Sequence record: LC788711.1
DNA length: 64,000 bases
Direction: 5' to 3' (one strand)
From: Escherichia coli phage NG_S8
The notes beneath the pieces are model-generated. The model saw only the letters and a program-made list of their open reading frames with translations, did not search any database and was not told where the DNA came from. Made by a program: the position numbers and the translations under genes. This document shows, one piece after another, positions 15,900-60,973 of this stretch (the stretch's first letter is position 1; each line of letters opens with the position of its first letter).

Positions 15900-15901
15900 G
15901 C

Positions 15902-20358: not shown

Positions 20359-20366
20359 AAATTTAT

Positions 20367-20395
20367 TTGCTTTTAGGAAAATTTTTCTGTATAAT
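20367..20395 (+). promoter_or_regulatory. strong early promoter, near-identical to T5 PN25 as I recall it
   Basis: TTGCTT-17 bp-TATAAT embedded in AAATTTATTTGCTTTTAGGAAAATTTTTCTGTATAATAGATTCATAAATTTGAGAGAGGAGTTTAAAT-ATG. Confidence 0.8.
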
Positions 20396-20426
20396 AGATT
20401 CATAAATTTGAGAGAGGAGTTTAAAT

Positions 20427-38618: not shown

Positions 38619-38650
38619 CCCCAGTGGACAATCCACTGGGGTTTTCTCTT
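38619..38650. terminator. bidirectional intrinsic terminator between convergent early and late transcription
   Basis: CCCCAGTGGA-CAA-TCCACTGGGG followed by TTTTCTCTT on the plus strand and by TTTATTATTAT on the minus strand. Confidence 0.8.
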
Positions 38651-44335: not shown

Positions 44336-47185
44336 TTAAATAGATGCCCAATCCACAGATTGCTCGCCATTATCACCTTCTGCTCTTATACGGAAGCGTA
44401 ACTTCCTATTAATACCTAGAGCATCCTCGTTATGAAGAGCATAGTCTGCCTTATTGTATATCAGTAGATAATCGTAGACATACTGATCTTCAATTCGTAC
44501 ACTTCTTAATAAACGATCTAGGTTATCGTAGATTTCGAGAGTGTAGAAGATTCCATCAATGATATCTTCTTCTGGAATTCTATCCCAGGCCAACTTAACG
44601 TCTGGTCCTACAAACTCCGATGCATCTCCTGAAGCTGTGTTAGTAACCCTGAAATTACTAACGACGCTTAAGTTTTTAGCAGAGTTAAGTTCTACTGATA
44701 GTGTTACAGGAGAACTTCGTCTACCATTAATATCTACAGCTCTAATCTCAAAGACTGCTAAACCAGCAGGTTCTCCAATAATTTCTTGGATCATTCGTAG
44801 ATTTGGATTAGTTTCTAGTTGCTGTACTATATAAGGATCAGCATGCCCAGAGTGAACGATGGAGTAATAAACAACGTTATTAGTTAAGCTAGGAAGCCAA
44901 GATAGCTCACCATTCTTACCAATAGATCCTACTTGTCCACCCGGTGTTGGTGTATACATAAAGTCTCTAGGAGGCAGTACGTTATTACTAACATCAGGGA
45001 TATCGTTACCACTATTATCAACCTGCTCGGAGTTAATGAATACATCCTCACCGTACTCTTGCAGTGTAATATTAATCTTACCTTCTCTAGAGTTTTCAAC
45101 TTCATCAACTAGGAAGTACTTCTTATCCCAACCATAACGACCATATGTAAAAGCAATTGGATCGTTAGGCTCAATGCCTATGAAATGATATGGTAATGAG
45201 AATGTGAGAGTTCGTGAGTAACGAGACTTTTTCAGTTCTCTATCTGCAAAGCTACGCGCAGTATAGTAGTTAGTGATGTTTGCAAAAGAAAGCTGAAGTT
45301 TTTTATCTAACCCTTTATCTTGTTCTTTAAATACAGAATTAAAGAATGTGATAGAGTTAGTTTTCCAACTTAATGCAGGATCTAATATAGAGGCTTGTAC
45401 TGAGTTGAATTTATTTCTGCCAGTAGTATCTGACAATTCCAGATCACCATAGGTATCTAAGAAGTCAATCTCCAGTGGAGTATTCGAGAACTTCTCAACA
45501 GTTATTCTATACTGACCAGATAAGTTGTTGATAGCACCCCCATAAGACTCTATTAATCCCTGCACGTTTTTAAATACTGACTCAGAGGTATCGAGAATAG
45601 TGTTCATTTGAACTATTTGTCTATTCTCTCCTACAGCATCAGTCCATCCAACGTATCTCCAGTAGGGTTGCCAAGAAACCTGATAGGATTCATCAATTAT
45701 ATCCAGAATAGCTGCTTCTTGAATAAGTTGCTGGAGAGGGAACTGATCAATAGTGATATTAGCACCATAGCGATTAGAGGTTAGGTAGTCCAGAGTTTGC
45801 CAGATACCATTTAAGCTAGTCTTATCAGCAGTTACTTTACCATCTGAATGATAGATCTTAATCTTCTTACCTTGAACTTCAGCGCTAACTTCTGGAATTT
45901 CTGTTCTGTTTTCATTAATAGTAAAGCGAACAATAGCGTAAGCAGTATCTAACAGTTTATAACGAGAGTCCCAGTATTCTGGTCCATTCTCATTCATGTT
46001 CTGTAGATAGAAACCTTTCTCTTTTGCAATGTTAACTAGAACATCAGCAGCAGATTGATCAGCCTTACCATGATAAGTCCAGATACGGATATCGCCATTA
46101 CCATCATTATACTTATATTCCTGTCCATGAACAGAAGGTTCAGAGCTTGGTTGACCAGAAGCAATACGTTGCATGGTATCACCAGCTACTTTCTTAGTAC
46201 CAAAGCAAGTACGAGACTTACTATCATTAGGATCAATACAGATCATTGGTACATCACCAAAGTAAAAATCTAGGAACCCATCAATCTCACCCTCACAGAA
46301 AGCGTATACTACATATACGATATTAGGATTATGCAGTTCAGTATCTGCAAATACTGGGATTCCAGGAATTTTCTGAACTCCATATACTACTGGCAGGAAT
46401 TTAGCAGCTAAGTTAAAATCAAGATCTACTTCCTTAGTTACAGTCTCATAATATTTCTTTAGACTATAGCTTCTAGAAAGACCAAATAATTTTTTCTTAG
46501 ATTGTAACTTATAACGTTCTTCCTGAACCTGATACTTAGCAAGAATAGAGATACTCTTGTTAGCGTGGAAGAACCCGTAGTCTTCTTGATATTCAGGTCG
46601 CTTAGCACCATTAGACGGAACTAATTGGCCGGCAACAATCTCAAGCCCTCTATGGTCAGCATCATCTGTGAAACGTCCATTTACTCTATCAAAGTCATAG
46701 AATTGGTTTGAACAGTTCCATGTAATAACGGATGTACTAACTCCAGAAGTACCAATGTTATCCTTAATACCACCACCAGTAATTTTACCACGGAAGTAAA
46801 GTAAAGGACCATTAGTGTCTGGATCTACAGGAAGAATATTACCTTCTTCATCAATAACCGCTTGATGGATTGAAATAGATCTATCTAGGAAGGATACACC
46901 ATTTTGGACTAGTTTTAATACTTCATCCTCAGCAGTACCTGTGATAGTAAAAGAAAGGCTACCAATGGAAAGTTTTCTATTTTGTTTATGTGTTGTTATA
47001 GACTTAACTTTACCGGATGTGTAAAGAATACCATTATAAATTACATCCCTAAAATAGTCTGTAAGATAAATGTACGCAGAACTTGATCCGGTAGAGCTTG
47101 GCAATTCAAGAGTAATAAGGCATGCAGTTTTTATTTTATTATTGGTTCTTAAATACTCTCTTGCACTGTCAAGAATTTTCTTCAT
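44336..47185 (-). CDS. baseplate hub protein (T5 pb3-like)
   Basis: 949 aa, the length I recall for T5 pb3; synteny. Confidence 0.8.
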   Translation of the reverse strand: MKKILDSAREYLRTNNKIKTACLITLELPSSTGSSSAYIYLTDYFRDVIYNGILYTSGKVKSITTHKQNRKLSIGSLSFTITGTAEDEVLKLVQNGVSFLDRSISIHQAVIDEEGNILPVDPDTNGPLLYFRGKITGGGIKDNIGTSGVSTSVITWNCSNQFYDFDRVNGRFTDDADHRGLEIVAGQLVPSNGAKRPEYQEDYGFFHANKSISILAKYQVQEERYKLQSKKKLFGLSRSYSLKKYYETVTKEVDLDFNLAAKFLPVVYGVQKIPGIPVFADTELHNPNIVYVVYAFCEGEIDGFLDFYFGDVPMICIDPNDSKSRTCFGTKKVAGDTMQRIASGQPSSEPSVHGQEYKYNDGNGDIRIWTYHGKADQSAADVLVNIAKEKGFYLQNMNENGPEYWDSRYKLLDTAYAIVRFTINENRTEIPEVSAEVQGKKIKIYHSDGKVTADKTSLNGIWQTLDYLTSNRYGANITIDQFPLQQLIQEAAILDIIDESYQVSWQPYWRYVGWTDAVGENRQIVQMNTILDTSESVFKNVQGLIESYGGAINNLSGQYRITVEKFSNTPLEIDFLDTYGDLELSDTTGRNKFNSVQASILDPALSWKTNSITFFNSVFKEQDKGLDKKLQLSFANITNYYTARSFADRELKKSRYSRTLTFSLPYHFIGIEPNDPIAFTYGRYGWDKKYFLVDEVENSREGKINITLQEYGEDVFINSEQVDNSGNDIPDVSNNVLPPRDFMYTPTPGGQVGSIGKNGELSWLPSLTNNVVYYSIVHSGHADPYIVQQLETNPNLRMIQEIIGEPAGLAVFEIRAVDINGRRSSPVTLSVELNSAKNLSVVSNFRVTNTASGDASEFVGPDVKLAWDRIPEEDIIDGIFYTLEIYDNLDRLLRSVRIEDQYVYDYLLIYNKADYALHNEDALGINRKLRFRIRAEGDNGEQSVDWASI

Positions 47186-47796
47186 AGACTTTCCCTCAAG
47201 GAAAGTGAAATACCAGTATATGTACCATTACTATTTAACGTAGAGCCAAAACTGTCTCCGTTCATTAATTTAGTTCTAAACAGAATACCATTAAATACCG
47301 GTTTCTCACTACCCGTAGTAGTAATGAATAGATCAGGATAAACACTTATATTCCAAGTATTTCCTACTGTGTTGATAGAAGTGATTTTATACACTTTTGG
47401 ATGATTGGACAACTTAAATAAATCGCCTGGTTTAGGCAGTCCACGAAGTGTACCTTTAGTGTCCATAATAACTGTTGAACCTTTTTGTCCAGCAGGAATA
47501 TTTACAGCACTAGTATCACCACGAACTCGGAAGGCTTCATATTGTGGTAATAACACATCAATATAGCTACCTGTTCTTTTATAATCTAGAATGAATGAGT
47601 CTAATTTAGCAAATTCATCTGGGAACAATTCTGGATAAGAGATATTAATACCCCAATATTGAGCAGACACCTTAACCTCCCTAACTTTACCATTAGGTAA
47701 TTCATCACGAATCATAGGGTCATTGTCTACTAAGTTAACGCTTTCAAAACCTAACCCTGATAGCTCTGGGTTCGTGTATGGGTCTGGTAGTCTCAT
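47182..47796 (-). CDS. distal tail protein, Dit (T5 pb9-like)
   Basis: 204 aa, the length I recall for T5 pb9; immediately downstream of the tape measure gene. Confidence 0.75.
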   Translation of the reverse strand: MRLPDPYTNPELSGLGFESVNLVDNDPMIRDELPNGKVREVKVSAQYWGINISYPELFPDEFAKLDSFILDYKRTGSYIDVLLPQYEAFRVRGDTSAVNIPAGQKGSTVIMDTKGTLRGLPKPGDLFKLSNHPKVYKITSINTVGNTWNISVYPDLFITTTGSEKPVFNGILFRTKLMNGDSFGSTLNSNGTYTGISLSLRESL

Positions 47797-47822
47797 AGTT
47801 AATTTCTCCTCTTAATAACAAT

Positions 47823-47851
47823 ATTATAATAGGATTGGAAAATTTTATCAA
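47823..47851 (-). promoter_or_regulatory. sigma70-like promoter on the minus strand upstream of pb9
   Basis: Minus strand reads TTGATA-17 bp-TATAAT, then AGGAG 9 nt before the pb9 ATG. Confidence 0.5.
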
Positions 47852-47859
47852 GAAATTTT

Positions 47860-47897
47860 TATTTTTCCATAAAGAAAAGGAGGACATAAAGTCCTCC
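47860..47897 (-). terminator. intrinsic terminator/attenuator after the tape measure gene
   Basis: Minus strand: GGAGGAC-TTTAT-GTCCTCC followed by TTTTCTTTATGG. Confidence 0.6.
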
Positions 47898-47904
47898 TCC
47901 AGTA

Positions 47905-50900
47905 TTAAGAATTACCAAGTGATTTCAGGGTGGTTCCATTCTCATTAAGAGCCTGTTCCACGGCATCCCTGAAAGCAGCACTGTTGCTCGAAGCAAAGTC
48001 TCGGAAGCTAGCCGCATCCATCGTACTGATGTTCAGCACAATAGGTCTACCCGATGTACCCTTTGAAGATCCTTTGAGTTCATCAGTAGGAGTAGCCTTC
48101 ATCGGAACCATAGGAGTGATTACTTCGGTACCATGCTCACCCATCTGGTAACTAACTCCAGGATACATATTACCACCTTCTGCACGAGGTACGAAAGAGT
48201 TAGCATTACCAATCCCTTGATCCCCTCGAATATAAGAAAGTTCTCCTGCGTTAGCCGACATAGAAACGTCTACGTTCTTCTGGCGCTCTCCAAGAGTTAA
48301 GTAACCAGCTGTCTCAGCACCAGAGTCCCCAATAGAAGACATACCAGATGCAGAGGATGCTTGAGCAAGAGCCATAGCACCTGCTAAACCAGCCGCAACC
48401 ATCAGAGGAATAGAAAATGGGTATGGAACAGCTGTTGCTGCTTGCATCACCGCTACTGCCGTCTGGATAATGATTTGCTTCTTAGCTGCATCTTGCTGGA
48501 TCTTGAGCTTTTCAGCCTCTAACTTCTTGATCTTAGCTTTGGATTGCTCAGATTTACCATCACGTTTCTGTTCTGCTGCAATAGCTGCATCAATAGCACT
48601 TACCTGTTGACCAACACTATACTGAATCATTGAAGACACAGTTTGCATACCAGCAGCAACTAAAGATGTAGTATCCAGAGATCCCTGAGAGAACTGAATC
48701 ATAGCATTAGTTAGGTTACCCATACTTTGTGCCACTGCAGTTGCTTCAGAGTTCAGCTCGGATAGTTTAGAGATAGCCTGGTCATAGGATGCCATTCTAT
48801 TCTGCATATCCGCGAAAGCTTTGTCATCTCCAGATAGTCCAGTTGTAGGTGTATATGTAGCTCCTACAGATGAACCTACTTGTTGTTGCATTTGAGCATT
48901 TCTTTGGGCTGCTAATGCGGACATTTGTGCTTGAGTTTTTGATATCTCAGAATTCCATCGCATCTGTTCATCCGCATTACCTTTAGTAAACTCTTTCATT
49001 TGTTTATAGAATTCTAACTGCATTTCCATCTTTTGCATTTCCCCTGCTAGAGGGTACATGCCAGTTAATGTATTCTCAAATGCTTCCTGTCTTTTTGCTG
49101 CAACTCTGGATATATTATCTAACCTAGCTTTCCAGATTTCACGCTCAATCTGTGCCTGAGCACGTCTTGATTGTTCAGCTTCCTTCTGCTTATCAATCTG
49201 CTTGGAGTACCACACATACTTCTCTTTCTCGATAGTCAGTTCAAGGTTCAACTGAGCTAAACGATATTGAGTATCTGTCATAGTACGGTTATTCAGGAGA
49301 GCTATTTCACGATCAACACCAAGAATCTTATCCGTATAGTCCTTAACTTTCTTCTGAGCTTCCATGTCCTGGTTAGTAATTTTTATACGTTCTAACTGAA
49401 CCTTAGCTATTTCATTCTCAATTGCCTTGTTACCCTTGTTAGTTTCTAGGACACGCTTAAGAGCTGCTTCCTGTTCTTCTAACTGTTGGATTTCTAGACG
49501 TCTACCCGCTTCCTGTGCTTTCTCTTTATCCTTGGTCTGGTTGTACACTTCGGCAATCTTCTGCTGAACTTCTAACTGATTCTTAGTCTCATTACCAGTT
49601 AATTTTACGTAACCAGCAAGAGCTTGTGAAGCAGTCTTCATCTCACTAAGAGTATTATACCCTAAGTTCAGGCTCTTAACATACTCATCAGCATTTTTAC
49701 CAGTACCCGCAGAAAGAGACTCAATAGTCTTAATCGTATCTGATAGGGATGCACTAGTTTTAGCCGCAGTATTAGTATTCTGAGCGATGTTCTGGATATC
49801 GTTAGCTAAGTCACTGGCAGTTTTCTTAGCTTGGTCATACGCTTTCTGCTGTTCTGTCAATCCTTTCAGAGTTGCAGAGTTAAAGTCATAAACCGCATCC
49901 GGGTCATTTGCATCTTTCTGTAGGTTAATTTGCTTCTGGAATGCTGTATTAGATTTGGCTGCGGCAGCACCAGCAGCTTGGTATGCCGATTTCCATGCAT
50001 TAAGATTGCCAGTTGAATCCTCTACTTCCTTATCAAGACGCTCTACCTGGAGAGCTAATGCAGCAGTATCTGCAATGAATTTCTGGTTTTCTTCAGAAGA
50101 TCCTATGCGAACTCCTCCTACTTCAAAACCTCCTGCAGCTAACCCTACCGGTGCACCTTGAGCAACTAAACGAATAGCCCCTGCTGTAGATGCATCTGCT
50201 TGCTGCATACGCTTGTCTAGATCAGCTTTTAACTTATTACGCTTTTCTAGAGATTCTTTGTACATATCAAGAGCTTTATTATATCCTTCCTCAGAAGCGG
50301 AAAGACTTAAAGCTACAGCACCAACGTTAGCTGGGTCAATCTGGCGGTTAGTTTCTTCCTGTGCTCTAGCAGCAGAGGCCGAGATAGATGCTTGAGAAGT
50401 ATAGAACACTGCGTTGATAGAATCAATTACTGGCCCTAAATACTTAGCAGCAGCCTGTTGAACCTTTCTCAGTGCAGCATCAGCATTAGCAGCAAACTGT
50501 TCCCAGGGGGTTGCACGAAGTACATCATCAAGATAGCCGAAACGTTTAGTAGATTCAGCGATAACTGCGTTAGCATATGCTTGTTGCTTCTGGAAAGTAG
50601 AGAGACTATTAACGTTATATGTAATACCTGTGTTAGCAGCATTTAACTGTTTAACGTAGTCTGCGTAAGCATCGTTAAGACGAATAGTAACACCAAGTTC
50701 GTCCAGAAGTTCGATTTCTTGTTTAGATACACCCTTGATTACACGGTTAAGTGCATCAGTCATATCAACACCAAGAACAGCAGCAGCACGACGAGCTACT
50801 AGACCAAATTTATTAAGTTGTTCAGCATCGAATCCATATGCAGAAGCAGAGGATGCCTGTCTCATTGCTTCTTCGAAGGAGATTGCATAACCAGCAGCCT

Positions 50901-51615
50901 CTTGTAGAGATCTAGCTAGAGTTTGTACAGGAGTACCTGTTTGAGTACCAACAATAGTACCAAACTTCTCAAGACGGTTTAACTGGTCACCCATCTTAAG
51001 TTGTTCGAATGCAGATTGTAGAACGAACACGTTAGACGCGATAGCAGCATACATAAGAGGTAAACTACCACCCACTTTAGCCATTGCTGCGAAGTCACGA
51101 GTAGCACCACGTGCTGAACCAGAAGTATTACCAATTGCACGACTAGCACGTCCTGCGGAGGTAGTTGTATCGTTAAAGCCTCTAGCAGTATTGCCTAGTG
51201 CTCGGTTAGTATCATATAATCTATCTTGAACTTTTTCGGTTGCAGCAGCTACATCGTTACCCATAGCCTTAACAGATTTACCCACATGTGTAAATCCAGA
51301 CTCTAGCTTCTCAGATACTTCGATCATAGCAAGGGCAAGATCATCTAGCTTATCACCAATACCTTCAATGGATTTAGTGATACCAGCCATACCTCTACTA
51401 GCCTGCATTTTAGTTAGACTTTTAGCTGCTCTATCCGCCGCCCTCTCAATGGAGTAAAGAGTTTTGGGCATTTTTCCTAACTGCTCATTAGTCAGTTCGG
51501 AAGCGGCAGCAGCATTTTCTAACGCATCGGAAACGTTCTCGATAGATTTTGCAGTACGGGTTGCCCCTTTCTGCTTTACATCTATAAGTAGTTCTCGTAT
51601 TAGCTTATCAGTCAT
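47905..51615 (-). CDS. tail tape measure protein (T5 pb2-like)
   Basis: 1236 aa, mostly predicted coiled-coil, Gly-rich C-terminal region; position between chaperones and Dit. Confidence 0.9.
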   Translation of the reverse strand: MTDKLIRELLIDVKQKGATRTAKSIENVSDALENAAAASELTNEQLGKMPKTLYSIERAADRAAKSLTKMQASRGMAGITKSIEGIGDKLDDLALAMIEVSEKLESGFTHVGKSVKAMGNDVAAATEKVQDRLYDTNRALGNTARGFNDTTTSAGRASRAIGNTSGSARGATRDFAAMAKVGGSLPLMYAAIASNVFVLQSAFEQLKMGDQLNRLEKFGTIVGTQTGTPVQTLARSLQEAAGYAISFEEAMRQASSASAYGFDAEQLNKFGLVARRAAAVLGVDMTDALNRVIKGVSKQEIELLDELGVTIRLNDAYADYVKQLNAANTGITYNVNSLSTFQKQQAYANAVIAESTKRFGYLDDVLRATPWEQFAANADAALRKVQQAAAKYLGPVIDSINAVFYTSQASISASAARAQEETNRQIDPANVGAVALSLSASEEGYNKALDMYKESLEKRNKLKADLDKRMQQADASTAGAIRLVAQGAPVGLAAGGFEVGGVRIGSSEENQKFIADTAALALQVERLDKEVEDSTGNLNAWKSAYQAAGAAAAKSNTAFQKQINLQKDANDPDAVYDFNSATLKGLTEQQKAYDQAKKTASDLANDIQNIAQNTNTAAKTSASLSDTIKTIESLSAGTGKNADEYVKSLNLGYNTLSEMKTASQALAGYVKLTGNETKNQLEVQQKIAEVYNQTKDKEKAQEAGRRLEIQQLEEQEAALKRVLETNKGNKAIENEIAKVQLERIKITNQDMEAQKKVKDYTDKILGVDREIALLNNRTMTDTQYRLAQLNLELTIEKEKYVWYSKQIDKQKEAEQSRRAQAQIEREIWKARLDNISRVAAKRQEAFENTLTGMYPLAGEMQKMEMQLEFYKQMKEFTKGNADEQMRWNSEISKTQAQMSALAAQRNAQMQQQVGSSVGATYTPTTGLSGDDKAFADMQNRMASYDQAISKLSELNSEATAVAQSMGNLTNAMIQFSQGSLDTTSLVAAGMQTVSSMIQYSVGQQVSAIDAAIAAEQKRDGKSEQSKAKIKKLEAEKLKIQQDAAKKQIIIQTAVAVMQAATAVPYPFSIPLMVAAGLAGAMALAQASSASGMSSIGDSGAETAGYLTLGERQKNVDVSMSANAGELSYIRGDQGIGNANSFVPRAEGGNMYPGVSYQMGEHGTEVITPMVPMKATPTDELKGSSKGTSGRPIVLNISTMDAASFRDFASSNSAAFRDAVEQALNENGTTLKSLGNS

Positions 51616-51621
51616 TTATTT

Positions 51622-51660
51622 TTCCCAATAAAAAAGGCTCTGGGCAAATCACCCAGAGCC
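51622..51660 (-). terminator. intrinsic terminator immediately upstream of the tape measure start
   Basis: Minus strand: GGCTCTGGG-TGATTTG-CCCAGAGCC then TTTTTTATTGGGAAAAATAA-ATG. Confidence 0.7.
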
Positions 51661-51695
51661 AAGCCTCATCGTGGAACGCCCATTGGAGGAAACTT

Positions 51696-52064
51696 TTACT
51701 GAGCTCGAGATCTAGCATGCGGTTTAATGTTCGGAGTACGACCATTAGGTTTACTATGCTTCTCGGCTCTCTTACGAGCTGCATCTACAGCTTTCGAATC
51801 AAATATATTGATGATGTGTAGAACAAACTCTTTCTCTATAGGATCAGTAATCCCATAGATATCAAATAAAACACCTAGTGCACTTTTGTCTTTTCCTATA
51901 AAGATAGGAAAGTCACCTGGTATGAAACAGTCAATAAGACTGTTATAAATATTCATACTAGTAGATACAATAGGTGGAAAATCTTCGAGTTCAACAGGCA
52001 TTGCCTTAGGATCAGGTTCAATACCTAGTGACTCACAAAGCATTAAATATTGTTGTTTTGTCAT
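51696..52064 (-). CDS. putative tail assembly chaperone, distal part
   Basis: 122 aa directly upstream of the tape measure gene; its frame stays open 29 codons upstream of the Met and overlaps the previous gene's end. Confidence 0.5.
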   Translation of the reverse strand: MTKQQYLMLCESLGIEPDPKAMPVELEDFPPIVSTSMNIYNSLIDCFIPGDFPIFIGKDKSALGVLFDIYGITDPIEKEFVLHIINIFDSKAVDAARKRAEKHSKPNGRTPNIKPHARSRAQ

Positions 52065-52125
52065 TTTAGATGCTGAGGATTTAATGCATTTATCTGCAAA
52101 ATCGGCAACAGCATCTAGTAACTGC

Positions 52126-52530
52126 TTACGCTTTTGAGCTACGAAAAGTGTCTAAGTGGAACACTGTCTGGTTGATCCAAGAATCAAACGCAGCAGAGTT
52201 CTGCATAAGCATGATAGCATTATCGCGGCTAAATGGAACTTCAGTAGTAGGATCAGCTTCAGTTTCGATAAGCATCAGCTTCTCAACATCTCCAATCGTC
52301 AAGCCAGTCCAGCCAGCAATTGCAGTATCAACGAAAGCTTCAATAAACTTATCATCATCCTGAACCTGAATCATAGTACCGTTAACCCACTCATCACGCT
52401 TAGCGGAAGAGATAACACGCTTAGATGCAGCACGAGACATGTAGTTCAGTTGCAGCTTGAAGTTAGGCATACCTGGATAAGCCAGCTCAATAGTACGAGT
52501 TTCAAGGGTAATATCTTTTAAATTGATCAT
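52126..52530 (-). CDS. putative tail assembly chaperone
   Basis: 134 aa, acidic, located between the tail tube genes and the tape measure gene. Confidence 0.55.
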   Translation of the reverse strand: MINLKDITLETRTIELAYPGMPNFKLQLNYMSRAASKRVISSAKRDEWVNGTMIQVQDDDKFIEAFVDTAIAGWTGLTIGDVEKLMLIETEADPTTEVPFSRDNAIMLMQNSAAFDSWINQTVFHLDTFRSSKA

Positions 52531-53426
52531 TTCTTTATTTCTCCAAAGAAGTCGATTCTTACCGGATCAGAGTCTGCAGTAGGGATTACATCCCATTCAA
52601 CTCTGTATACATCCGAGAATTGTAGGCGTTTTGTTATACGTGCTGAAGGAAAGTCAATCGAAATATGTTCATTTCGGATGGTTAATGGTATGTCAGTTTC
52701 GGGTTCAATATTATAAAACATATCACCAGCAAATCGCTTAGTGTAGTAAAATGCAATTGTTGCCGAAGCATTCATCTCATTAACATAAGCTCTCTTATTA
52801 TTATATATTTTGTTTATGTCAAATACGCTTTTATCTTCTCTCCAAGAACATTGTTGCTGGAATGACATAGAAGCGGATAAAAGAGCCGGTAAAACGTTAC
52901 TGTTAGTAGATACTCTAGGAGGACTATATGACATAACTTCACCCTGAACAATAGAACCAGCAGGAGTAAAAGTAGACACCTCAGAGAACTTACCAGATTC
53001 AATTCCTACGTTTAGAATAGGAACGCTTTTATCTAGAGAAAAGTCTACAGTAGATACATAGCAATTCTCAAAATACACACAGTTATTATCTTTATTAACT
53101 ATGTATATATTAAACATTGTTGGCTCAATATTTGTACTATAAAGTGGTAGTAGGAATGTGTTACCCTCTCGGTCAAAGCCCATCCATTCAAAGAAGTTAG
53201 CTTCAGTAAGGGTATTACTAAAATTTATAGCCAGCGATATTGAAGATGGAGTTTGTGCATTAATAATAGAGTCAGCATAGTTGGTTCTACGATGGATAGT
53301 CCTACGAAGAGTTTTAAATTCCTCATAGGACGTATTGATATCGTAATTTGACAGGGCATCAAAATGATAAGCCCTGCCATCATACTCAACTATAACTTTT
53401 GACTCCCTCATTAGAGAGTAGTACAT
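52527..53426 (-). CDS. tail protein (T5 p140-like)
   Basis: 299 aa (T5 p140 is 299 aa as I recall); synteny. Confidence 0.65.
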   Translation of the reverse strand: MYYSLMRESKVIVEYDGRAYHFDALSNYDINTSYEEFKTLRRTIHRRTNYADSIINAQTPSSISLAINFSNTLTEANFFEWMGFDREGNTFLLPLYSTNIEPTMFNIYIVNKDNNCVYFENCYVSTVDFSLDKSVPILNVGIESGKFSEVSTFTPAGSIVQGEVMSYSPPRVSTNSNVLPALLSASMSFQQQCSWREDKSVFDINKIYNNKRAYVNEMNASATIAFYYTKRFAGDMFYNIEPETDIPLTIRNEHISIDFPSARITKRLQFSDVYRVEWDVIPTADSDPVRIDFFGEIKK

Positions 53427-53430
53427 TTAA

Positions 53431-54840
53431 TTAGCCACCAGAAGCAGTAACTGTAATGCTCTTAGTACCTTCTACACCAGAACCATCTTTAGCTACAGCT
53501 TTCACAGTAACTGCACCAGTCTTAGAAGCATCAGCGGTCAGTAAACCAGAAGTTGCATCAATAGTAGCAGCAGTACCAGAGGAAATAGACCAAGTTACTT
53601 CCTTATTAGTAGCTTCAGCAGGTAAAACGTCTACAGTCATCTGAAGAGTTGCGCTATTCTCAACGGAAGTTGCATCGCCCGCAGATTTAACAGTAATACC
53701 TGTTACCTTAACCGGAGCTGCTTTACCACCGTCACCAGTTGCAATCAGATTTGCAATAGTAGTTTTGGTGTACTTATTAGAGAAACCAAGATAACCTTCA
53801 TCACCAGTATCCAGATCAGTAGGAATTGCTTTGAACTCTACAGAAGTACCAAGTACATCGTCAGTCTCAATAGTTGGGATGTTAACGTGAGCTTGCTTAG
53901 CAACTAGAACAGCGGCTGGGCGCTCATCGTCATATTCACCGCCAAGTACTAGAGCGATTTCGAAACGGTTAACTACCTTCAGGGTCTTAATCAGATCTTT
54001 ATACAGATCCATAGAACCTAGAGCTTTATCGTTAAGATAAGCGGTCAGAGAACCAGTTAATTCGAATGCACCAGTAAATGAACCGATTGGGATGTTAACA
54101 CGGGACATGACGTTAGGAGTCAGATAGGTGATGTTGTTGTTAATTGTAAAGCTACCACCAGTGATCGGAATGTCATATGCCTTACCAGTATCCATATCCT
54201 TAATTTTGAGGATAGTCAGTTTGTTCTTGATGTAAGAACCCTGGATAGTCATGTAAGTTTCATCATCAATACCCACAGTATCAGGATCAAAGGGAGCAGC
54301 GTCCAGAGGGATCAGCTGGTTACCATTACCCGACCAAGTTACACGACCGATATCTTCGATATCAACGTTTACTTCAGCCTGGTTGATCTGACAGGAATCG
54401 ATGTAGCTCCATGCTTTATCAGTAAGGATGTAAATATGTAGCATTGCCAGCTCGTGGTATGCGTTATCCTTAAAGTTAACCATGAAGTTAGTTTCGTTAG
54501 TGTGAGCACCTGTATCACCATCTAGGTTGATAGGCTTACCACTAGAAAGAGCATGCCACAGCATGTAGTCCGGAACGATCTGCTTACTAGTAGTCTTATC
54601 TAAGTAAGGCAGGATGTAAGTAGAGAAACTCCACTCAGCTGCGTTCAGGGAGTCGTTGAAACGTTTTGAACCACGAGTTGGACGCGGACCAGCTTCGTTA
54701 ACAGTAATATCGGTTGAGTTACTGTCCTGACCCCAAGAAATATCATCTTGAACTAGAATCTCTTGCGTGTTGGTCTTATCGTGACCAGTCTTAACCGTAG
54801 ACACGAAGATTCGAGTATTACGTAATAGTTGTAAAGACAT
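53431..54840 (-). CDS. major tail tube protein with C-terminal Ig-like domain (T5 pb6-like)
   Basis: 469 aa; C-terminal Big_2-like segment (VTVKAVAKDGSGVEGTKSITVTASGG); strong RBS GGAGAA. Confidence 0.85.
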   Translation of the reverse strand: MSLQLLRNTRIFVSTVKTGHDKTNTQEILVQDDISWGQDSNSTDITVNEAGPRPTRGSKRFNDSLNAAEWSFSTYILPYLDKTTSKQIVPDYMLWHALSSGKPINLDGDTGAHTNETNFMVNFKDNAYHELAMLHIYILTDKAWSYIDSCQINQAEVNVDIEDIGRVTWSGNGNQLIPLDAAPFDPDTVGIDDETYMTIQGSYIKNKLTILKIKDMDTGKAYDIPITGGSFTINNNITYLTPNVMSRVNIPIGSFTGAFELTGSLTAYLNDKALGSMDLYKDLIKTLKVVNRFEIALVLGGEYDDERPAAVLVAKQAHVNIPTIETDDVLGTSVEFKAIPTDLDTGDEGYLGFSNKYTKTTIANLIATGDGGKAAPVKVTGITVKSAGDATSVENSATLQMTVDVLPAEATNKEVTWSISSGTAATIDATSGLLTADASKTGAVTVKAVAKDGSGVEGTKSITVTASGG

Positions 54841-54866
54841 TTATTTATATTCTCCTAATCTGTAAC

Positions 54867-55352
54867 TTATCTGCGAAGTGCCCTACGAGGTGGCTGATAC
54901 CTCACTGTTACATTTATTTCCGCTAAACCATATGGGGCCAGTAGACCCTCATCTGTAGCTACTGAGGTGATGCTCATATCAGTTGCCTCACATGGGAAGG
55001 TCGATCCATTAGGTTTACTAACAGTATATTCTAAATTTCCACCTGTGTCAATGACGGTTTTTATGTCAGCTACGAGTTTTTCAAGTTGCTCTTGAATATC
55101 TGTTTTCTCTTTGTCATACACGAAGATTGGAAGTTCTAAAAACATCCACTGTTGGCCTGAAGGAAGATACTGCCCAGTTTCAGTTCCGATATGAACTGCC
55201 ACGAAAGGAAATTCTCGGATTTCCTCGAATTTATAAGTTTGACGAGAAACGTTTCCATAAAGGTTATTGAAATACTCGTCAGGTTGTGAACCATCCATTT
55301 GTGTGGCGATTCGGTCAACCACTGCTTGTGCAATACTTGTTCTGTGATCCAT
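54867..55352 (-). CDS. tail terminator protein (T5 p142-like)
   Basis: 161 aa (T5 p142 is 161 aa as I recall); synteny. Confidence 0.65.
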   Translation of the reverse strand: MDHRTSIAQAVVDRIATQMDGSQPDEYFNNLYGNVSRQTYKFEEIREFPFVAVHIGTETGQYLPSGQQWMFLELPIFVYDKEKTDIQEQLEKLVADIKTVIDTGGNLEYTVSKPNGSTFPCEATDMSITSVATDEGLLAPYGLAEINVTVRYQPPRRALRR

Positions 55353-55355
55353 TTA

Positions 55356-56123
55356 TTAGGTTCCTTGATTAACCTTGATTTTATATCTAGAGTGAATCAG
55401 GTCTCTTGCAGCTTTTGCGATTGCCTCCCCAATAAGTTTTTGAGGGTTTCGAGCGCCAGGGTAAGGTCGTAGAGAAAGTCTTCGATATGTAGAAACTGCG
55501 GGGTTGAACACAGAGTAAGGACGAACCATATAGTTATACGTCACATTCAGCTCTGGAGCACCTTTACTAGTTTCTGCATCACGTAGCATAACGTCTTTAA
55601 TCTTTAAGGAGTTAGCAAAGCGACCAGTTCTGAACTTCAATGGTGCCCCTGCTTTTTTCATATCCTTGATTAAATATTCCTTAGCAACTATCTCAAGAAT
55701 AGCACGCATGTTACTGTTCGATACGAAACGACCGGAAGCACCTGTTACTGCACCAGAATAGCCATCTTCAGTATCTCTAGGATCTCCAAAGTTTACCTGA
55801 ACTCTACCGGTAGAACGTTTTTTACCAGCAGCAGAACGTTTACCTGCTGTTGCTTGAATTAAATTCTCTAGAGCGCCTAAATCACCAGAAAGATCTAAAT
55901 TAGAAGAAACAGCCTTCAGTATAGATGCTGTCCTAACATTTAATAAGTCTTGAGATACTGGTTTTGAGAATTTGAAAGATACCTGTGCAACTGTACCATC
56001 TCTTGTAGGATCTTTCAAACCTGTCTCAACTGTATACACAACAGTATTCTTATTATTCTCAGATCGTCCTGCAGTATCTAGCTGCTCTTTAATAATTTGT
56101 CTAGCTAGATCAGAAAGAGCCAT
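55356..56123 (-). CDS. neck / tail completion protein (T5 p143-like)
   Basis: 255 aa; synteny between head completion and tail terminator genes. Confidence 0.55.
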   Translation of the reverse strand: MALSDLARQIIKEQLDTAGRSENNKNTVVYTVETGLKDPTRDGTVAQVSFKFSKPVSQDLLNVRTASILKAVSSNLDLSGDLGALENLIQATAGKRSAAGKKRSTGRVQVNFGDPRDTEDGYSGAVTGASGRFVSNSNMRAILEIVAKEYLIKDMKKAGAPLKFRTGRFANSLKIKDVMLRDAETSKGAPELNVTYNYMVRPYSVFNPAVSTYRRLSLRPYPGARNPQKLIGEAIAKAARDLIHSRYKIKVNQGT

Positions 56124-56635
56124 TATACTCTCCTGTAGACTTCGATGATTGTACGAATATGCTCTGGAATACCAGACTTAGTATTGTTAAACGTAACTGT
56201 CTCACCACCAATAGTCTTGGCTTGACGATAATCTTGCTTATGCCAGTGGTCTACTAACAGACATGCTGCCAGTTTAAGATCTTCAGGCATTGGATTGAAA
56301 CCACCTTGAGTATACTCTACATCCATATACCCTTCAGGAGGATTAAACTTAAGAAGAATAACACCATCAGGATACAGTTTAAACTGTTCCGGGTCTATTT
56401 CATTCTCGTTAATAGTCATCTTTGTAATAGATGTGGCTGAGGGAGAACTCAGGAAATATTTCCTACGGCTAGGTTTAGTAGTGATTAATTGATCTACCGC
56501 ATCCGCGTCGTCCATACCTAAAAGGCTAGTAATCAGCGTATTGGCAGATTTAATCATCATATCTACTTGAGTTTCAATTTCAGGACGTTTTGCGTTAGCA
56601 TATAGTCTGTAATCTTCAACAGTGATGATTTGCAT
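56123..56635 (-). CDS. head completion / head-tail adaptor protein (T5 p144-like)
   Basis: 170 aa; immediately downstream of the capsid gene and its terminator. Confidence 0.55.
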   Translation of the reverse strand: MQIITVEDYRLYANAKRPEIETQVDMMIKSANTLITSLLGMDDADAVDQLITTKPSRRKYFLSSPSATSITKMTINENEIDPEQFKLYPDGVILLKFNPPEGYMDVEYTQGGFNPMPEDLKLAACLLVDHWHKQDYRQAKTIGGETVTFNNTKSGIPEHIRTIIEVYRRV

Positions 56636-56644
56636 TTATTTTTT

Positions 56645-56676
56645 CCCAATAAAAAAGGAGAGCCGAAGCTCTCCTT
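56645..56676 (-). terminator. intrinsic terminator after the major capsid gene
   Basis: Minus strand: AAGGAGAGC-TTCG-GCTCTCCTT then TTTTTTATTGGGAAAAAATAA-ATG. Confidence 0.7.
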
Positions 56677-56695
56677 ATCGGCTGAAAAGCCTGTA

Positions 56696-58072
56696 TTAAG
56701 CGGCAGCGTAAGCACCAGATACAACGCCGTTTTCGAAGTAACGTTGCAGGTTAACACGCTGGGTAACGTAGTATGCGTCACGCTGTTTGCCAGCTTGGCG
56801 CTCACGTTCAACAGTAACGGCACGCTGACGCGGCATTACAAAGTTATCTTTATAAACAATAACTGCGAATTCAGCGGAAGCAGCTTTAGCTGGGAAGTAC
56901 TCAGAAACTACAACCGGCAGACCGTAAATACGACCAACCTGACCCTGCAGTTTAACAGCATCGTTACCAACCTGGGCAACATCCTGCCATTCTTCATCTT
57001 CCAGCAGATCGTAGTAAGCATCCATAGATACGATCAGTACCAGTTTGCTCAGTTTCAGACCGTGACGGCCCAGTTTACGACGCAGCTTGGAGATAGTCTT
57101 AGCAGTTACCAGAACAGAACCGTCAGCTTTAGCTTCGGTAACAACCTTAGCACCATCATCAGCAGCCAGTTTCAGCAGACCCTTAGGCTGACCAGTACCA
57201 TTACCGGACATGAAAGCTTCTTCGATAGAAACAGCGTGTGCTTCGATCAGACGCTTACGCAGCAGAGGCAGCAGGGAGAAGATTGCATCTTCTTCAGTTT
57301 CATCAGTGATGAAGGACTTAGCAGCCAGCTTGTAAGTTTTGAAGCTGATTTCAGTCAGTTGACCTTTAACTTCGTCACCAACAGTTTCGTCAGTACCGAA
57401 TTTGGAAGCATCTACCCAAGTAGCACGACCAGCTTCTGGTTCAACGAGCATAGTAAGGATTTTGCTGGACATTGGCAGTTCATCGAACAGTGCACCAACT
57501 ACCAGTTCCTTCTGCAGGTCACGGATAATACGGGTAGAGAAGATAGTTTCGTATGCTTCGCTAGACATGGAAACGGAAGAAGAACCGTTAACAGCTTTAA
57601 CGTGAGCCTTACCATGTTCAGTTTCGAATACGTCTTTCTCCATCATATAAGACAGAAGAACCAGTTTCTCAACTTCATCTTCGAAAGCATCCTGAGTGCC
57701 ATAAAGAGCTTTAGCTACGCTATCACCAACGAAGGAACGACCTTCACGAGCTGCCAACAGAGACTTGATTTCGTCCTGAAGACCAACGATGGTTTCCTGC
57801 TGCTTTTCTACAGTCTGTGCAAACAGTTCTGCGCTCTTCTTAGACTTCTCGTCCAGGTTCTTAACCAGATCCAGAGCCTCTTCCAGACGCTTACGGTCTT
57901 CACCAACAGCTTTAGATACTAGGTCATTCATACGAGACAGTTCTTTTTCTTCCTGCTCTTCACGCAGACGCTTAGCTTCCGCAGCTTTCTGAGCAGCAGT
58001 CAGACCTTCCAGAGATTTAGCCAGATCACCCAGACCAAGTTCTTCCTTCAGCTTATTAATATCAATAGTCAT
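56696..58072 (-). CDS. major capsid protein (T5 pb8-like, HK97 fold expected)
   Basis: 458 aa, the length I recall for T5 pb8; N-terminal coiled-coil delta-like domain; follows the protease gene. Confidence 0.85.
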   Translation of the reverse strand: MTIDINKLKEELGLGDLAKSLEGLTAAQKAAEAKRLREEQEEKELSRMNDLVSKAVGEDRKRLEEALDLVKNLDEKSKKSAELFAQTVEKQQETIVGLQDEIKSLLAAREGRSFVGDSVAKALYGTQDAFEDEVEKLVLLSYMMEKDVFETEHGKAHVKAVNGSSSVSMSSEAYETIFSTRIIRDLQKELVVGALFDELPMSSKILTMLVEPEAGRATWVDASKFGTDETVGDEVKGQLTEISFKTYKLAAKSFITDETEEDAIFSLLPLLRKRLIEAHAVSIEEAFMSGNGTGQPKGLLKLAADDGAKVVTEAKADGSVLVTAKTISKLRRKLGRHGLKLSKLVLIVSMDAYYDLLEDEEWQDVAQVGNDAVKLQGQVGRIYGLPVVVSEYFPAKAASAEFAVIVYKDNFVMPRQRAVTVERERQAGKQRDAYYVTQRVNLQRYFENGVVSGAYAAA

Positions 58073-60422: not shown

Positions 60423-60946
60423 TATAAGAACCTTGCGAATCCTGATTTAGTTTCAGTCTTGACTTGTGTCTTTTCTTGAGGATTCTGTAGCTTTTCCTTT
60501 TGTTTAAGAACCCATGCCTTCTGCTTATTAGCAGAAAAAAGGGGAGGTTCCTTAGTGTACACCTTATGTAATAGTTGGTGATGGTGGACACAAAGGGTAA
60601 CAGTGTCATCTACTAGCTCATGCCTATATCTTTCATAGAATGCCGTCCTATTTGAGAGGACTGTTTCTTCGTCAGTGAAATCCAATTGGAGTTCTTTAGC
60701 AAATTTTTTAACTAGTAGAGACACTGTATGGTAATGATGAAGCTCTAATTCTTCACCACAACCACAGATTTCGCAGCGATCGGCTTTTTTATATTGACTT
60801 TTTATACCGTCTCGCATGAGTGATATAGCATCACGTTTATATTTTACATTTCCTGCCACAGTATTCTCCTCAACTGTATGAATATAGTATACATAATCAT
60901 GTCGAATTTGTAAAGGGGATTTTAAAATGCAGGAATGGGATACCAA
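60422..60946 (-). CDS. HNH endonuclease
   Basis: CEICGCGEELELHHYH...N...LCVHHHQLLH: HNH motif with Zn-binding Cys/His pairs; 174 aa. Confidence 0.8.
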   Translation of the reverse strand: MVSHSCILKSPLQIRHDYVYYIHTVEENTVAGNVKYKRDAISLMRDGIKSQYKKADRCEICGCGEELELHHYHTVSLLVKKFAKELQLDFTDEETVLSNRTAFYERYRHELVDDTVTLCVHHHQLLHKVYTKEPPLFSANKQKAWVLKQKEKLQNPQEKTQVKTETKSGFARFL

Positions 60947-60973
60947 CTGAGTAGTATCCCATCCTATACTTAT

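What the first reader, a model, noticed from the sequence alone, without database searches (positions are those of the whole stretch)
47858..56676. Terminator-leader module repeated three times in the late operon
The plus-strand sequences at 47858-47897, 51616-51660 and 56635-56676 share ATTTATTTTT(T)CC(C/A)(A/T)ATAAA(A/G)AAAAGG followed by a GC-rich hairpin. On the coding (minus) strand this is hairpin, then CCTTTTTTATTGGGAAAAATAA, then ATG for the tape measure and head-completion genes. The conservation extends beyond the hairpin into the A/T-rich tract. That suggests a shared element for attenuation, translation initiation or late promoter recognition rather than three independent terminators.
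Basis: seen in the sequence. Interest (0 to 1): 0.45.

Follow-up and report, generated by a model that had tools for sequence, protein, structure and literature searches.

The report
Three terminators abutting start signals
The repeated motif is three ordinary transcription stop signals in the late operon of a T5-like phage, two running straight into the next gene's ribosome-binding site and one into a long-known T5 promoter, so it is compact phage gene punctuation and not a new shared control element.

Summary
The window is a T5-like phage, 100% identical to Salmonella phage BD13. All three sites are strong intrinsic terminators on the minus strand. They lie after the major capsid gene (site 3), the tail-assembly chaperone genes (site 2) and the tape-measure gene (site 1).

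Sites 2 and 3 share a 23/24-nt tail: T6ATT, GGGA, A5-6TAA, ATG. This reads as U-tract, weak Shine-Dalgarno, A-rich spacer and start codon. It occurs exactly twice in the BD13 genome.

Site 1 only resembles them. Its A/T block is the AT-rich -43 block of a sigma-70 promoter (TTGATA-17-TATAAT). T5 record AY692264 annotates that promoter as "P-G 25". Seventeen other promoters in the window carry the same block.

All three terminators keep their positions across Demerecviridae, out to Vibrio and Aeromonas phages, with compensatory stem changes. In those relatives the Shine-Dalgarno motif varies, as expected for a ribosome-binding site. Public records of related phages (VAH1, Slocum) already annotate them as terminators, Slocum also marking the adjacent ribosome-binding sites.

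The idea of one shared element is not supported.

One item stays unexplained. A roughly 35-nt non-coding block upstream of the site-2 hairpin is conserved in nearly every lineage sampled; its UUUC(C)UCCA core is in all of them.

The parts
56657..56674 (-). Site 3 terminator hairpin GGAGAGC-UUCG-GCUCUCC. AA:UU extends it to 56655-56676. It starts 22 nt after the major capsid gene stop codon (56696-56698).
   Evidence: -12.0 kcal/mol. Identical in T5, Klebsiella KPN4 and Proteus PM135. Compensatory variants in L010, AAS21 and the Vibrio and Aeromonas phages.
56648..56656 (-). Site 3 U-tract TTTTTTATT.
   Evidence: The same 9-mer follows the site-2 hairpin and a third terminator at BD13 position 101746.
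56633..56647 (-). Site 3 translation-initiation region: GGGA (56644-56647), spacer AAAAATAA (56636-56643) and the ATG (56633-56635) of the head completion protein gene 56123-56635.
   Evidence: anti-SD duplex -4.2 kcal/mol, spacing 8. Pfam HCP, 1.8e-77. An RBS is annotated at the same place in Serratia phage Slocum.
56680..56691 (-). Small hairpin GGCU-UUUC-AGCC just after the capsid gene stop. It is followed by the invariant GCCGA.
   Evidence: GGC...GCC is kept with variable loops in L010, L032, KPN4, Kamaji and AAS21. Function not established.
51636..51660 (-). Site 2 terminator hairpin GGCUCUGGG-UGAUUUG-CCCAGAGCC.
   Evidence: -19.1 kcal/mol, 10 bp. Compensatory stem variants in KPN4 (GGCCUAGGG/CCCUAGGCC), PM135, phi3 and Akh-2.
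51627..51635 (-). Site 2 U-tract TTTTTTATT.
51613..51626 (-). Site 2 translation-initiation region: GGGA (51623-51626), spacer AAAATAA (51616-51622) and the ATG (51613-51615) of the tape measure gene 47905-51615.
   Evidence: -4.2 kcal/mol, spacing 7. Terminator plus RBS annotated at the same place in Slocum and listed for Spivey.
51661..51695 (-). Conserved non-coding block AAGUUUCCUCCAAUGGGCGUUCCACGAUGAGGCUU, between the chaperone stop codon (51696-51698) and the site-2 hairpin. Function unknown.
   Evidence: Conserved from Salmonella and E. coli phages to Klebsiella, Serratia, Proteus, Pantoea and Vibrio phi3/ABurr phages. The UUUC(C)UCCA core is also kept in Aeromonas Akh-2 and Vibrio 70E35-3. 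1-nt indels between close relatives rule out coding. Single copy in the genome. No Rfam match.
47879..47897 (-). Site 1 terminator hairpin GGAGGAC-UUUAU-GUCCUCC. G-U pairs extend it to 47876-47900. It starts 7 nt after the tape measure stop codon (47905-47907).
   Evidence: -12.1 kcal/mol. Ten different but always complementary stems across the family. Annotated as a terminator in VAH1 and Slocum.
47869..47878 (-). Site 1 U-tract TTTTCTTTAT.
   Evidence: The same TTTTCTTTAT follows the orthologous hairpin in Aeromonas phage Akh-2 and Pantoea AAS21.
47852..47868 (-). A/T block GGAAAAATAAAAATTTC. This is the AT-rich '-43' upstream block of the promoter, not an RBS.
   Evidence: It lies directly 5' of the -35 hexamer. 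It falls inside the feature annotated 'promoter P-G 25' in T5 AY692264. The same block precedes 17 other TTGCTT-type promoters in the window, with a twin GAAAAATAAAAATT at 32557+. AAAAATT at -43 is reported for T5-like promoters (PMC3326045).
47823..47851 (-). Sigma-70 promoter core: TTGATA (47846-47851), 17-bp spacer, TATAAT (47823-47828). It is the orthologue of T5 P-G25.
   Evidence: 11 of 12 consensus positions.. Conserved as a TTGA/TTTACA...TATAAT promoter in KPN4, Kamaji, PM135, AAS21 and Vibrio phages.
47794..47811 (-). RBS GAGGAG (47806-47811), spacer AAATTAACT and the ATG (47794-47796) of the distal tail protein pb9 gene 47182-47796.
   Evidence: Pfam DTP-pb9 domains, 4e-44.

Best explanation
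These are three separate Rho-independent terminators that punctuate the late (virion) operon of a T5-like phage. Each is packed directly against the start signal of the next transcription or translation unit.

Sites 3 and 2 are leaky terminators. Site 3 follows the major capsid gene. Site 2 follows the tube, minor tail and chaperone genes. The 20-21 nt between hairpin and ATG hold only the U-tract (UUUUUUAUU), a weak Shine-Dalgarno (GGGA) and an A-rich spacer. Polymerases that stop there would yield abundant capsid and tail-tube messages ending in a stable hairpin. The fraction that reads through supplies the low-copy head-completion and tape-measure proteins, translated from the weak site just past the U-tract.

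Site 1 ends the tape-measure unit. It is followed at once by a full sigma-70 promoter, the orthologue of T5 P-G25, which restarts transcription for the baseplate and fibre genes. Its 'A/T tract' is that promoter's upstream AT-rich block.

Shown here: the sequence anatomy, the gene context, the conservation and covariation, and identity with annotated features in relatives. Inferred: actual termination efficiencies, read-through, and the link to protein stoichiometry.
For: Identity and gene map: (100% to BD13, Epseptimavirus).

Terminators: searches give hairpins of about -12, -19 and -11 to -12 kcal/mol, each followed by a T-run, all downstream of stop codons and on the transcribed strand.

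Tails at sites 2 and 3: across 12-13 lineages the distance from hairpin to ATG stays 17-24 nt. A G-cluster complementary to the anti-SD always lies 5-10 nt before the ATG. Its sequence changes between lineages (GGGA, GGA, GGGU, AGGUGA, AGGAG, GGAGG), as expected of a ribosome-binding site.

Stems: they change by compensatory substitutions at all three sites.

Public annotation: terminators at all three junctions in VAH1; terminator immediately followed by an RBS at sites 2 and 3 in Slocum; terminator and ribosome_binding_site listed for Spivey and an RBS for Stubb at site 2.

Site 1: TTGATA-17-TATAAT matches 11 of 12 consensus positions. It lies within the 'promoter P-G 25' feature of T5 AY692264, and the sequence is the same apart from 2 differences. 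The same AAAAATT-type block precedes 17 other promoters in the window and is described for T5-like promoters (PMC3326045). T5 late genes are known to have strong sigma-70 promoters (PMC7472727).

Other terminators in this genome fall into the same two classes. Some are followed by an RBS and ATG (2124-, 22239+, 33768+, and BD13 93615). Others are followed by an AT block and a -35 hexamer (7767-, 10215-, 13503+, 22579+, and BD13 101746).
Against: No transcript-end data for T5-like late mRNAs were found in the library searches. Termination and read-through are therefore inferred.

Generic terminator and RBS constraints do not by themselves force 23-24 identical nucleotides at two sites. Other terminator-RBS junctions in the same genome look different.

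The same 23-mer, TTTTTTATTGGGTAAAATAAATG, turns up at site 3 in Proteus PM135 and at site 2 in Serratia Kamaji and Pantoea AAS21. That points to unusually strong purifying selection on this exact sequence, or to an ancient shared origin. The simple model does not explain this.

The conserved block upstream of the site-2 hairpin is also unexplained.
Confidence: 0.8

Rival explanations
1. The tail at sites 2 and 3 is also one strand of a long-range helix. Sequences just upstream of each terminator hairpin (UCCAAUG and GUUU at site 2; CCGAUA and UUUUC at site 3) would pair with UAUUGGG and GAAAA in the tail. This would hide the Shine-Dalgarno in read-through transcripts. A ribosome finishing the upstream gene would open the helix, coupling tape-measure translation to chaperone translation. 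This would add to the terminator-RBS reading, not replace it.
For: The minimum-free-energy folds of the window sequence draw exactly these helices around both terminator hairpins. Flank-to-tail duplexes beat shuffled flanks in the window (p = 0.01 with the 28-nt flank; p = 0.09 with the CCUCC segment). They also do so in L099, KPN4 and L032 (p = 0.03-0.1). Combining ten lineages by Fisher's method gives about p = 0.02. That figure is my own arithmetic, and the lineages are not independent. A conserved anti-SD-like CCUCC lies upstream of a gene that needs low, chaperone-linked expression.
Against: The pairing is not significant in Kamaji, PM135, phi3, ABurr or Akh-2, nor at site 3 in any relative. 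Changes such as CCAAU to CCACU, or GGGA to GGGU, are not compensated on the other strand. Any CU-rich stretch will pair with any purine-rich RBS.
Confidence: 0.2
2. One sequence-specific trans-acting factor recognises the common motif UUAU(U)GG(G)AAAAAUAAA at all three sites as a single regulatory signal. Candidates are a phage late regulator, an antiterminator or an RNA-binding protein.
For: The tails are conserved far beyond the flanking coding DNA. The T5 site-3 module differs from the window by a single A, while the genomes are about 83% identical over this region. The only megablast match to Proteus phage VTCCBPA139 is the site-3 module (H85). How T5 switches to late transcription is unresolved (PMC7472727).
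Against: Site 1 belongs to a different sequence class, shared with about 17 early and late promoters. The supposed motif drifts freely in other genera while its position and the SD-to-ATG geometry are kept. The three sites do not change together within a lineage. There are no further copies in the genome.
Confidence: 0.06
3. The tails at sites 2 and 3 are late promoters or promoter-recognition elements.
For: AAUAAAUG loosely recalls AT-rich -10-like or T4-late-like motifs.
Against: Only 20-21 nt separate hairpin and ATG. There is no -35/-10 pair and no room for a leader. T5-type promoters in this genome have a clear, different architecture: AAAAATT block, TTGCTT, 17 bp, TATAAT. T5 late genes use sigma-70 promoters.
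Confidence: 0.02
4. The identity of the site 2 and site 3 tails is historical only. It would be a recent duplication, gene conversion or small mobile cassette.
For: Two near-identical 23/24-mers sit 5 kb apart. In T5 st0 an extra ORF is inserted exactly after the T6ATT of site 2, so this junction does undergo insertions.
Against: The hairpins next to the tails are unrelated in sequence. Both junctions already have the same architecture in Vibrio and Aeromonas phages. The two tails diverge independently within lineages, so there is no concerted evolution.
Confidence: 0.05

Closest known systems
Bacteriophage T5 promoter P-G25 (feature 'promoter P-G 25' in GenBank AY692264, upstream of pb9), with the terminator that precedes it
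   Same: Site 1 is its orthologue. From the hairpin through the U-tract, AT block, TTGATA-17-TATAAT and leader to the RBS and ATG there are only 2 differences in about 110 nt. From my own knowledge, P-G25 is one of the strong T5 promoters characterised by Gentz and Bujard in 1985, and its leader AAAGAGGAGAAATTAACTATGAGA equals the RBSII of the pDS/pQE vectors.
   Different: Nothing of substance. The window has C for A in the spacer and one A fewer before the RBS.
Terminator and RBS features annotated in related phage records: E. coli phage VAH1 (MK373792), Serratia phage Slocum (MN095770), Klebsiella phage Spivey (MK630230)
   Same: The same three gene junctions, the same hairpins or compensated variants, and at sites 2 and 3 an RBS annotated directly after the terminator.
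   Different: Those are computational annotations. None remarks on the near-identity of the two tails.
Leaky intrinsic terminator after a phage major capsid gene, such as T7 T-phi after gene 10
   Same: A hairpin terminator placed just after the most abundant structural gene, with essential genes downstream that depend on read-through. The T7 terminator is described as naturally inefficient, about 62% (PMC9157156 abstract).
   Different: T7 uses its own polymerase. Here host sigma-70 RNA polymerase is used, and the next gene's RBS starts immediately after the U-tract.
AT-rich upstream ('-43', UP-like) block of T5-type sigma-70 promoters
   Same: GGAAAAATAAAAATTTC lies directly 5' of the -35 hexamer. 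The same AAAAATT pattern is seen at 17 other promoters in the window and is reported for T5-like phage AKFV33 (PMC3326045). An UP element is drawn for T5 early and late promoters in PMC7472727 Fig. S5.
   Different: Binding of the RNA polymerase alpha subunit C-terminal domain to this block was not tested here.
Classical transcription attenuators with alternative antiterminator and terminator folds (trp or pyrBI type)
   Same: A terminator lies between two genes of one operon. RNAalifold drew an alternative pairing between the upstream block and the 5' arm of the site-2 terminator.
   Different: There is no leader peptide. The alternative pairing is short, is far weaker than the -19 kcal/mol terminator, and is not consistently kept in KPN4 or PM135.

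Membership tests
Rho-independent (intrinsic) terminator | G+C-rich stem-loop (5-11 bp, loop 3-8 nt) on the transcribed strand | tested here: met
   Stems of 7, 10 and 7 bp, at about -12.1, -19.1 and -11 to -12 kcal/mol for sites 1, 2 and 3.
Rho-independent (intrinsic) terminator | A U-rich tract of about 8-9 nt directly after the stem | tested here: met
   TTTTCTTTAT, TTTTTTATT and TTTTTTATT.
Rho-independent (intrinsic) terminator | Located after a stop codon; stem kept by compensatory change in relatives | tested here: met
   The hairpins start 7, 35 and 22 nt after the stop codons of the tape measure, chaperone and capsid genes. Ten or eleven different complementary stems per site across the family.
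Rho-independent (intrinsic) terminator | RNA 3' ends form there in vivo or in vitro | not testable with these tools
   No transcript-end data for T5-like late mRNAs were found.
Shine-Dalgarno ribosome-binding site (sites 2 and 3) | Purine-rich motif complementary to the 16S rRNA 3' end, 5-10 nt upstream of the start codon of a real gene | tested here: met
   GGGA, -4.2 kcal/mol, spacing 7 and 8. In relatives the motif varies up to GGAGG (-10 to -12 kcal/mol), with spacing kept at 5-10 nt. The genes are confirmed.
Sigma-70 promoter of the T5 type, P-G25 (site 1) | -35 and -10 hexamers with a 17-bp spacer | tested here: met
   TTGATA-17-TATAAT, 11 of 12 consensus positions.
Sigma-70 promoter of the T5 type, P-G25 (site 1) | AT-rich block (AAAAATT) around -43 | tested here: met
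   GGAAAAATAAAAATTTC abuts the -35 hexamer. The same block is found at 17 other promoters. Described in the literature.
Sigma-70 promoter of the T5 type, P-G25 (site 1) | Orthology to the T5 sequence annotated as P-G25 | tested here: met
   same position upstream of pb9, 2 differences.
Sigma-70 promoter of the T5 type, P-G25 (site 1) | Transcription starts there late in infection | not testable with these tools
   This rests on earlier work on T5 (my own knowledge of Gentz and Bujard 1985; paper not held).
Single repeated regulatory element common to all three sites | The same sequence class at all copies, distinct from other genomic signals | tested here: not met
   The site-1 block groups with promoter AT blocks, with its twin at 32557+. 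It is followed by a promoter, not an ATG.
Single repeated regulatory element common to all three sites | Motif sequence itself conserved in relatives | tested here: inconclusive
   T6ATTGG is kept in most enterobacterial lineages at sites 2 and 3. The rest drifts, and in Vibrio and Aeromonas phages only the architecture remains.
Attenuator or riboswitch-like alternative-structure switch (site 2) | Mutually exclusive antiterminator helix supported by covariation | tested here: inconclusive
   A candidate pairing exists, but only one pair shows a double change. It is mismatched in KPN4 and PM135. The upstream hairpin is no more stable than shuffles. No Rfam family matches.

The most novel reading that the evidence does not exclude
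Site 2 may be more than a terminator plus an RBS. The family-wide conserved non-coding block (UUUCCUCCA...GGGCGUUCCACGA, 51661-51695), together with the hairpin and the conserved tail, could form an uncharacterised cis-regulatory RNA. Such an RNA would set tape-measure expression, for example by chaperone-coupled unmasking of the RBS or by modulated read-through. Alternatively it could be the body of a 3'UTR-derived small RNA with an anti-SD-like seed.
Probability: 0.15. Interest if true: 0.55.

Novelty: already known. Interest (0 to 1): 0.15.

Why it matters
As it stands, this is a clear example of how a T5-like phage sets protein ratios. Leaky terminators follow the high-copy capsid and tail-tube genes. 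Weak ribosome-binding sites start right after the U-tract for low-copy proteins. A strong internal promoter restarts transcription for the baseplate genes. This is useful for annotation and for phage engineering, since these junctions should not be cut. It does not change how we understand such phages.

The one piece that could matter more is the deeply conserved non-coding block before the tape-measure gene. If it is a regulatory RNA, it would be a new conserved control point of tail assembly in Demerecviridae.

Tried and rejected
1. Late-promoter reading of sites 2 and 3. Rejected: there is no room and there are no hexamers.

2. Coding or read-through extension of the chaperone across the site-2 hairpin (ORF 51608-51784). 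Rejected: close relatives differ by 1-nt indels (GGGC versus GGGGC; CGATGAGG versus CGTGAGG).

3. Bidirectional terminator. Rejected: no T-run follows the hairpins on the plus strand.

4. Shine-Dalgarno-sequestering helices. Tested by duplex energies against shuffled flanks. Weak and not consistent, so kept only as a minor rival.

5. Antiterminator pairing of the block with the 5' arm of the terminator. Not consistently conserved.

6. Stable hairpin within the block. No better than shuffles.

7. Rfam scan of 47-58.5 kb at E up to 5. Only noise.

8. Trans targets for the CCUCC motif in the window. 7 matches against 5.1 expected.

9. Metagenome scan for more copies of the block. The viral-contig scan returned only the lineages already seen plus chance hits.

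10. DNA nick site or other repeated DNA signal for the block. Unlikely, because it is single-copy in the genome.

11. Literature searches for T5-like late transcript maps. Nothing held. Gentz and Bujard 1985 and Nakayama 1994 are not in the library.

Full report
**What the window is.** The 10.5 kb around the finding is 100% identical to Salmonella phage BD13 (Epseptimavirus, Demerecviridae). It is about 83% identical to T5-type Tequintavirus genomes.

On the minus strand the gene order is: terminase, portal, decoration protein, protease, major capsid protein (56696-58072), head completion protein (56123-56635), neck and tail-terminator proteins, major tail protein, minor tail protein, two tail-assembly-chaperone ORFs (52126-52530 and 51696-52064), tape measure protein (47905-51615), distal tail protein pb9 (47182-47796), then baseplate and fibre genes.

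- Site 3, minus strand: GGAGAGC-TTCG-GCTCTCC, then TTTTTTATT GGGA AAAAATAA ATG.
- Site 2, minus strand: GGCTCTGGG-TGATTTG-CCCAGAGCC, then TTTTTTATT GGGA AAAATAA ATG.

The tails are identical apart from one A. The 23-mer had no match in 100 shuffles. It occurs nowhere else in the window or in the remaining 57 kb of BD13.

Site 1 reads GGAGGAC-TTTAT-GTCCTCC, then TTTTCTTTAT GGAAAAATAAAAATTTC. This resembles the other tails, matching 17 of 21 positions by hand alignment of the sequences. All three are among the five best terminator-like hits in 44-64 kb.

**What sites 2 and 3 are.** Between hairpin and ATG there are only 20-21 nt. These are a 9-nt U-tract, GGGA placed 7-8 nt before the ATG, and an A-rich spacer. 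There is no room for a promoter.

I compared the same two gene junctions in 12-13 lineages. These covered Tequintavirus and Epseptimavirus, Klebsiella KPN4, Serratia Kamaji and Slocum, Proteus PM135, Pantoea AAS21, an unnamed IMG/VR lineage, three Vibrio phage groups and Aeromonas Akh-2.

- Every lineage has a hairpin plus T-run there. The stems differ by compensatory changes, for example GGCTCTGGG/CCCAGAGCC, GGCCTAGGG/CCCTAGGCC, GCTCTGAGG/CCTCAGAGC and GCCTCGAAG/CTTCGAGGC at site 2.
- The distance to the ATG stays 17-24 nt.
- A G-cluster complementary to the anti-SD always sits 5-10 nt before the ATG. Its sequence varies (GGGA, GGA, GGGU, AGGUGA, AGGAG, GGAGG).

This is the behaviour of a U-tract plus a ribosome-binding site, not of a fixed recognition motif. 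Public records already annotate it this way. VAH1 marks all three as terminators. Slocum marks a terminator immediately followed by an RBS at sites 3 and 2. The Spivey and Stubb records list equivalent features at site 2.

The head-completion and tape-measure genes have no promoter of their own, so they must be transcribed by read-through. The terminators therefore have to be leaky. This is an inference from the layout. It fits the usual layout, as in T7 T-phi after gene 10. It also fits the weak GGGA sites (-4.2 kcal/mol) serving low-copy proteins; the copy numbers are from my own knowledge.

**What site 1 is.** Directly after the U-tract comes GGAAAAATAAAAATTTC, then TTGATA-17-TATAAT (11 of 12 consensus positions). 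A leader follows, with a strong GAGGAG RBS and the pb9 ATG.

The T5 record AY692264 annotates this stretch as 'promoter P-G 25', and the sequence differs at 2 positions only.

A scan for TTGnnn-N16-18-TATAAT found 21 sites in the window. About 18 of them, including site 1, are T5-type promoters. These carry an AAAAATT-type block just before TTGCTT. One at 32557+ has GAAAAATAAAAATT, the closest twin of the site-1 block.

The AKFV33 genome paper describes the AT-rich region (AAAAATT) upstream of -43 in T5-like promoters (PMC3326045). PMC7472727 notes strong sigma-70 promoters, with an UP element, before early and late T5 genes.

The terminator-then-promoter layout at the tape measure/pb9 junction is kept in Klebsiella, Serratia, Proteus, Pantoea, Vibrio and Aeromonas phages. 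Other terminators in this genome follow the same two designs: terminator plus RBS, or terminator plus AT block plus -35 hexamer.

**Why the two tails are so alike.** This is not fully explained. The two sites do not change together within a lineage, so recent copying is unlikely. Both are under strong purifying selection:

- The T5 site-3 module differs from the window by one A over 42 nt, against about 17% background divergence. A binomial estimate gives roughly 0.004; this is my own arithmetic.
- The site-3 module is the only megablast match to a Proteus phage (H85).
- The same 23-mer, TTTTTTATTGGGTAAAATAAATG, sits at site 3 in PM135 and at site 2 in Kamaji and AAS21.

An ancestral common sequence held near a joint optimum for termination and initiation is the simplest reading. 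An added function cannot be excluded.

**Tests of added functions.** RNAfold draws helices that pair the segment just upstream of each hairpin with UAUUGGG and GAAAA of the tail, hiding the Shine-Dalgarno. Duplex energies against shuffled flanks were suggestive in the window and in three relatives. They were not significant in five others, nor at site 3 in relatives. Sequence changes are not compensated. I keep this reading as a 20% add-on.

RNAalifold also proposed pairing between the upstream block and the terminator's 5' arm. This pairing is short and not consistently kept.

**An unexplained conserved block.** Between the chaperone stop codon and the site-2 hairpin lies AAGUUUCCUCCAAUGGGCGUUCCACGAUGAGGCUU (51661-51695).

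- It is non-coding, because there are 1-nt indels among close relatives.
- It is nevertheless conserved in nearly every lineage examined. TCCTC(C)A...GGGCRTT(T)CCACGA is present in Vibrio phi3 and ABurr. The UUUC(C)UCCA core is also present in Aeromonas Akh-2 and Vibrio 70E35-3.
- It is single-copy and has no Rfam match.
- It does not fold better than shuffles.
- It shows no excess of complementary targets in the window.

Its function is unknown. It is the basis of the novel case.

**Verdict.** The features are ordinary, and terminators, ribosome-binding sites or the promoter are annotated at the orthologous positions in T5 and related phage records: three independent intrinsic terminators, two fused to ribosome-binding sites and one fused to the classical promoter P-G25.

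Noticed in passing
window 51661-51695 (minus strand): A roughly 35-nt non-coding block, AAGTTTCCTCCAATGGGCGTTCCACGATGAGGCTT, lies between the chaperone stop codon and the site-2 terminator. It is conserved in nearly all Demerecviridae lineages sampled, including Vibrio phages phi3 and ABurr, and its UUUC(C)UCCA core is in all of them. It contains an anti-SD-like CCUCC, is single-copy in the genome and has no Rfam match. Function unknown.
   Followed up: partly
window 52064-52151 (minus strand): The second chaperone ORF (51696-52064) has no Shine-Dalgarno. Its frame is open upstream to 52151 and overlaps the end of the first chaperone ORF (stop at 52126) by 24-26 nt in the +1 (or -2) frame. Pantoea phage AAS21 annotates overlapping CDSs there. 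This looks like the G/GT-type programmed frameshift of tail-assembly chaperones, but not in the usual -1 frame.
   Followed up: partly
L038 (T5 st0, AY692264) 15490-16272; L039 17048-17803; L040 10145-10882; L041 17016-17777: In T5 st0 an extra roughly 250-aa ORF (T5p137; Pfam CapR-homology and treble-clef zinc-finger domains) is inserted exactly after the T6ATT of site 2. It replaces the GGGAAAAAT tail and brings its own RBS for pb2. Vibrio phages also carry an unrelated roughly 250-aa ORF between this terminator and the tape measure gene.
   Followed up: partly
window 56680-56691 and 56677-56681 (minus strand): A small hairpin, GGCU-UUUC-AGCC, and an invariant GCCGA sit between the capsid gene stop and the site-3 terminator. 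GGC...GCC is kept with varying loops in five other lineages.
   Followed up: partly
window 55023-55051 (minus strand): A strong promoter-like site, TTGACA-17-TATACT, lies inside the tail-terminator protein gene, upstream of the major tail protein gene. It corresponds in position to the 'promoter P-J 5' feature of T5 AY692264.
   Followed up: partly
window 20345-20440 (plus strand): The promoter and leader GTAAAAATTTATTTGCTTttaggaaaatttttctgTATAATagattcataaatttgagagaggagttt closely resemble, from memory, the T5 P-N25 promoter used in pQE-type expression vectors. About 17 promoters of this TTGCTT/TATAAT type with an AAAAATT block are in the window.
   Followed up: no
window 38619-38641 (both strands): A perfect hairpin, CCCCAGTGGA-TTG-TCCACTGGGG (-18.2 kcal/mol), has T-runs on both strands. 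It lies between the end of the late operon and the convergent early genes, and is a likely bidirectional terminator.
   Followed up: no
window 60933-60964 and 60886-60914 (minus strand): A 13-bp hairpin without a clean T-run is followed by a TTTACA-17-TATACT promoter-like site, between the large terminase gene and the next ORF. T5 annotates a putative promoter at the equivalent place.
   Followed up: no
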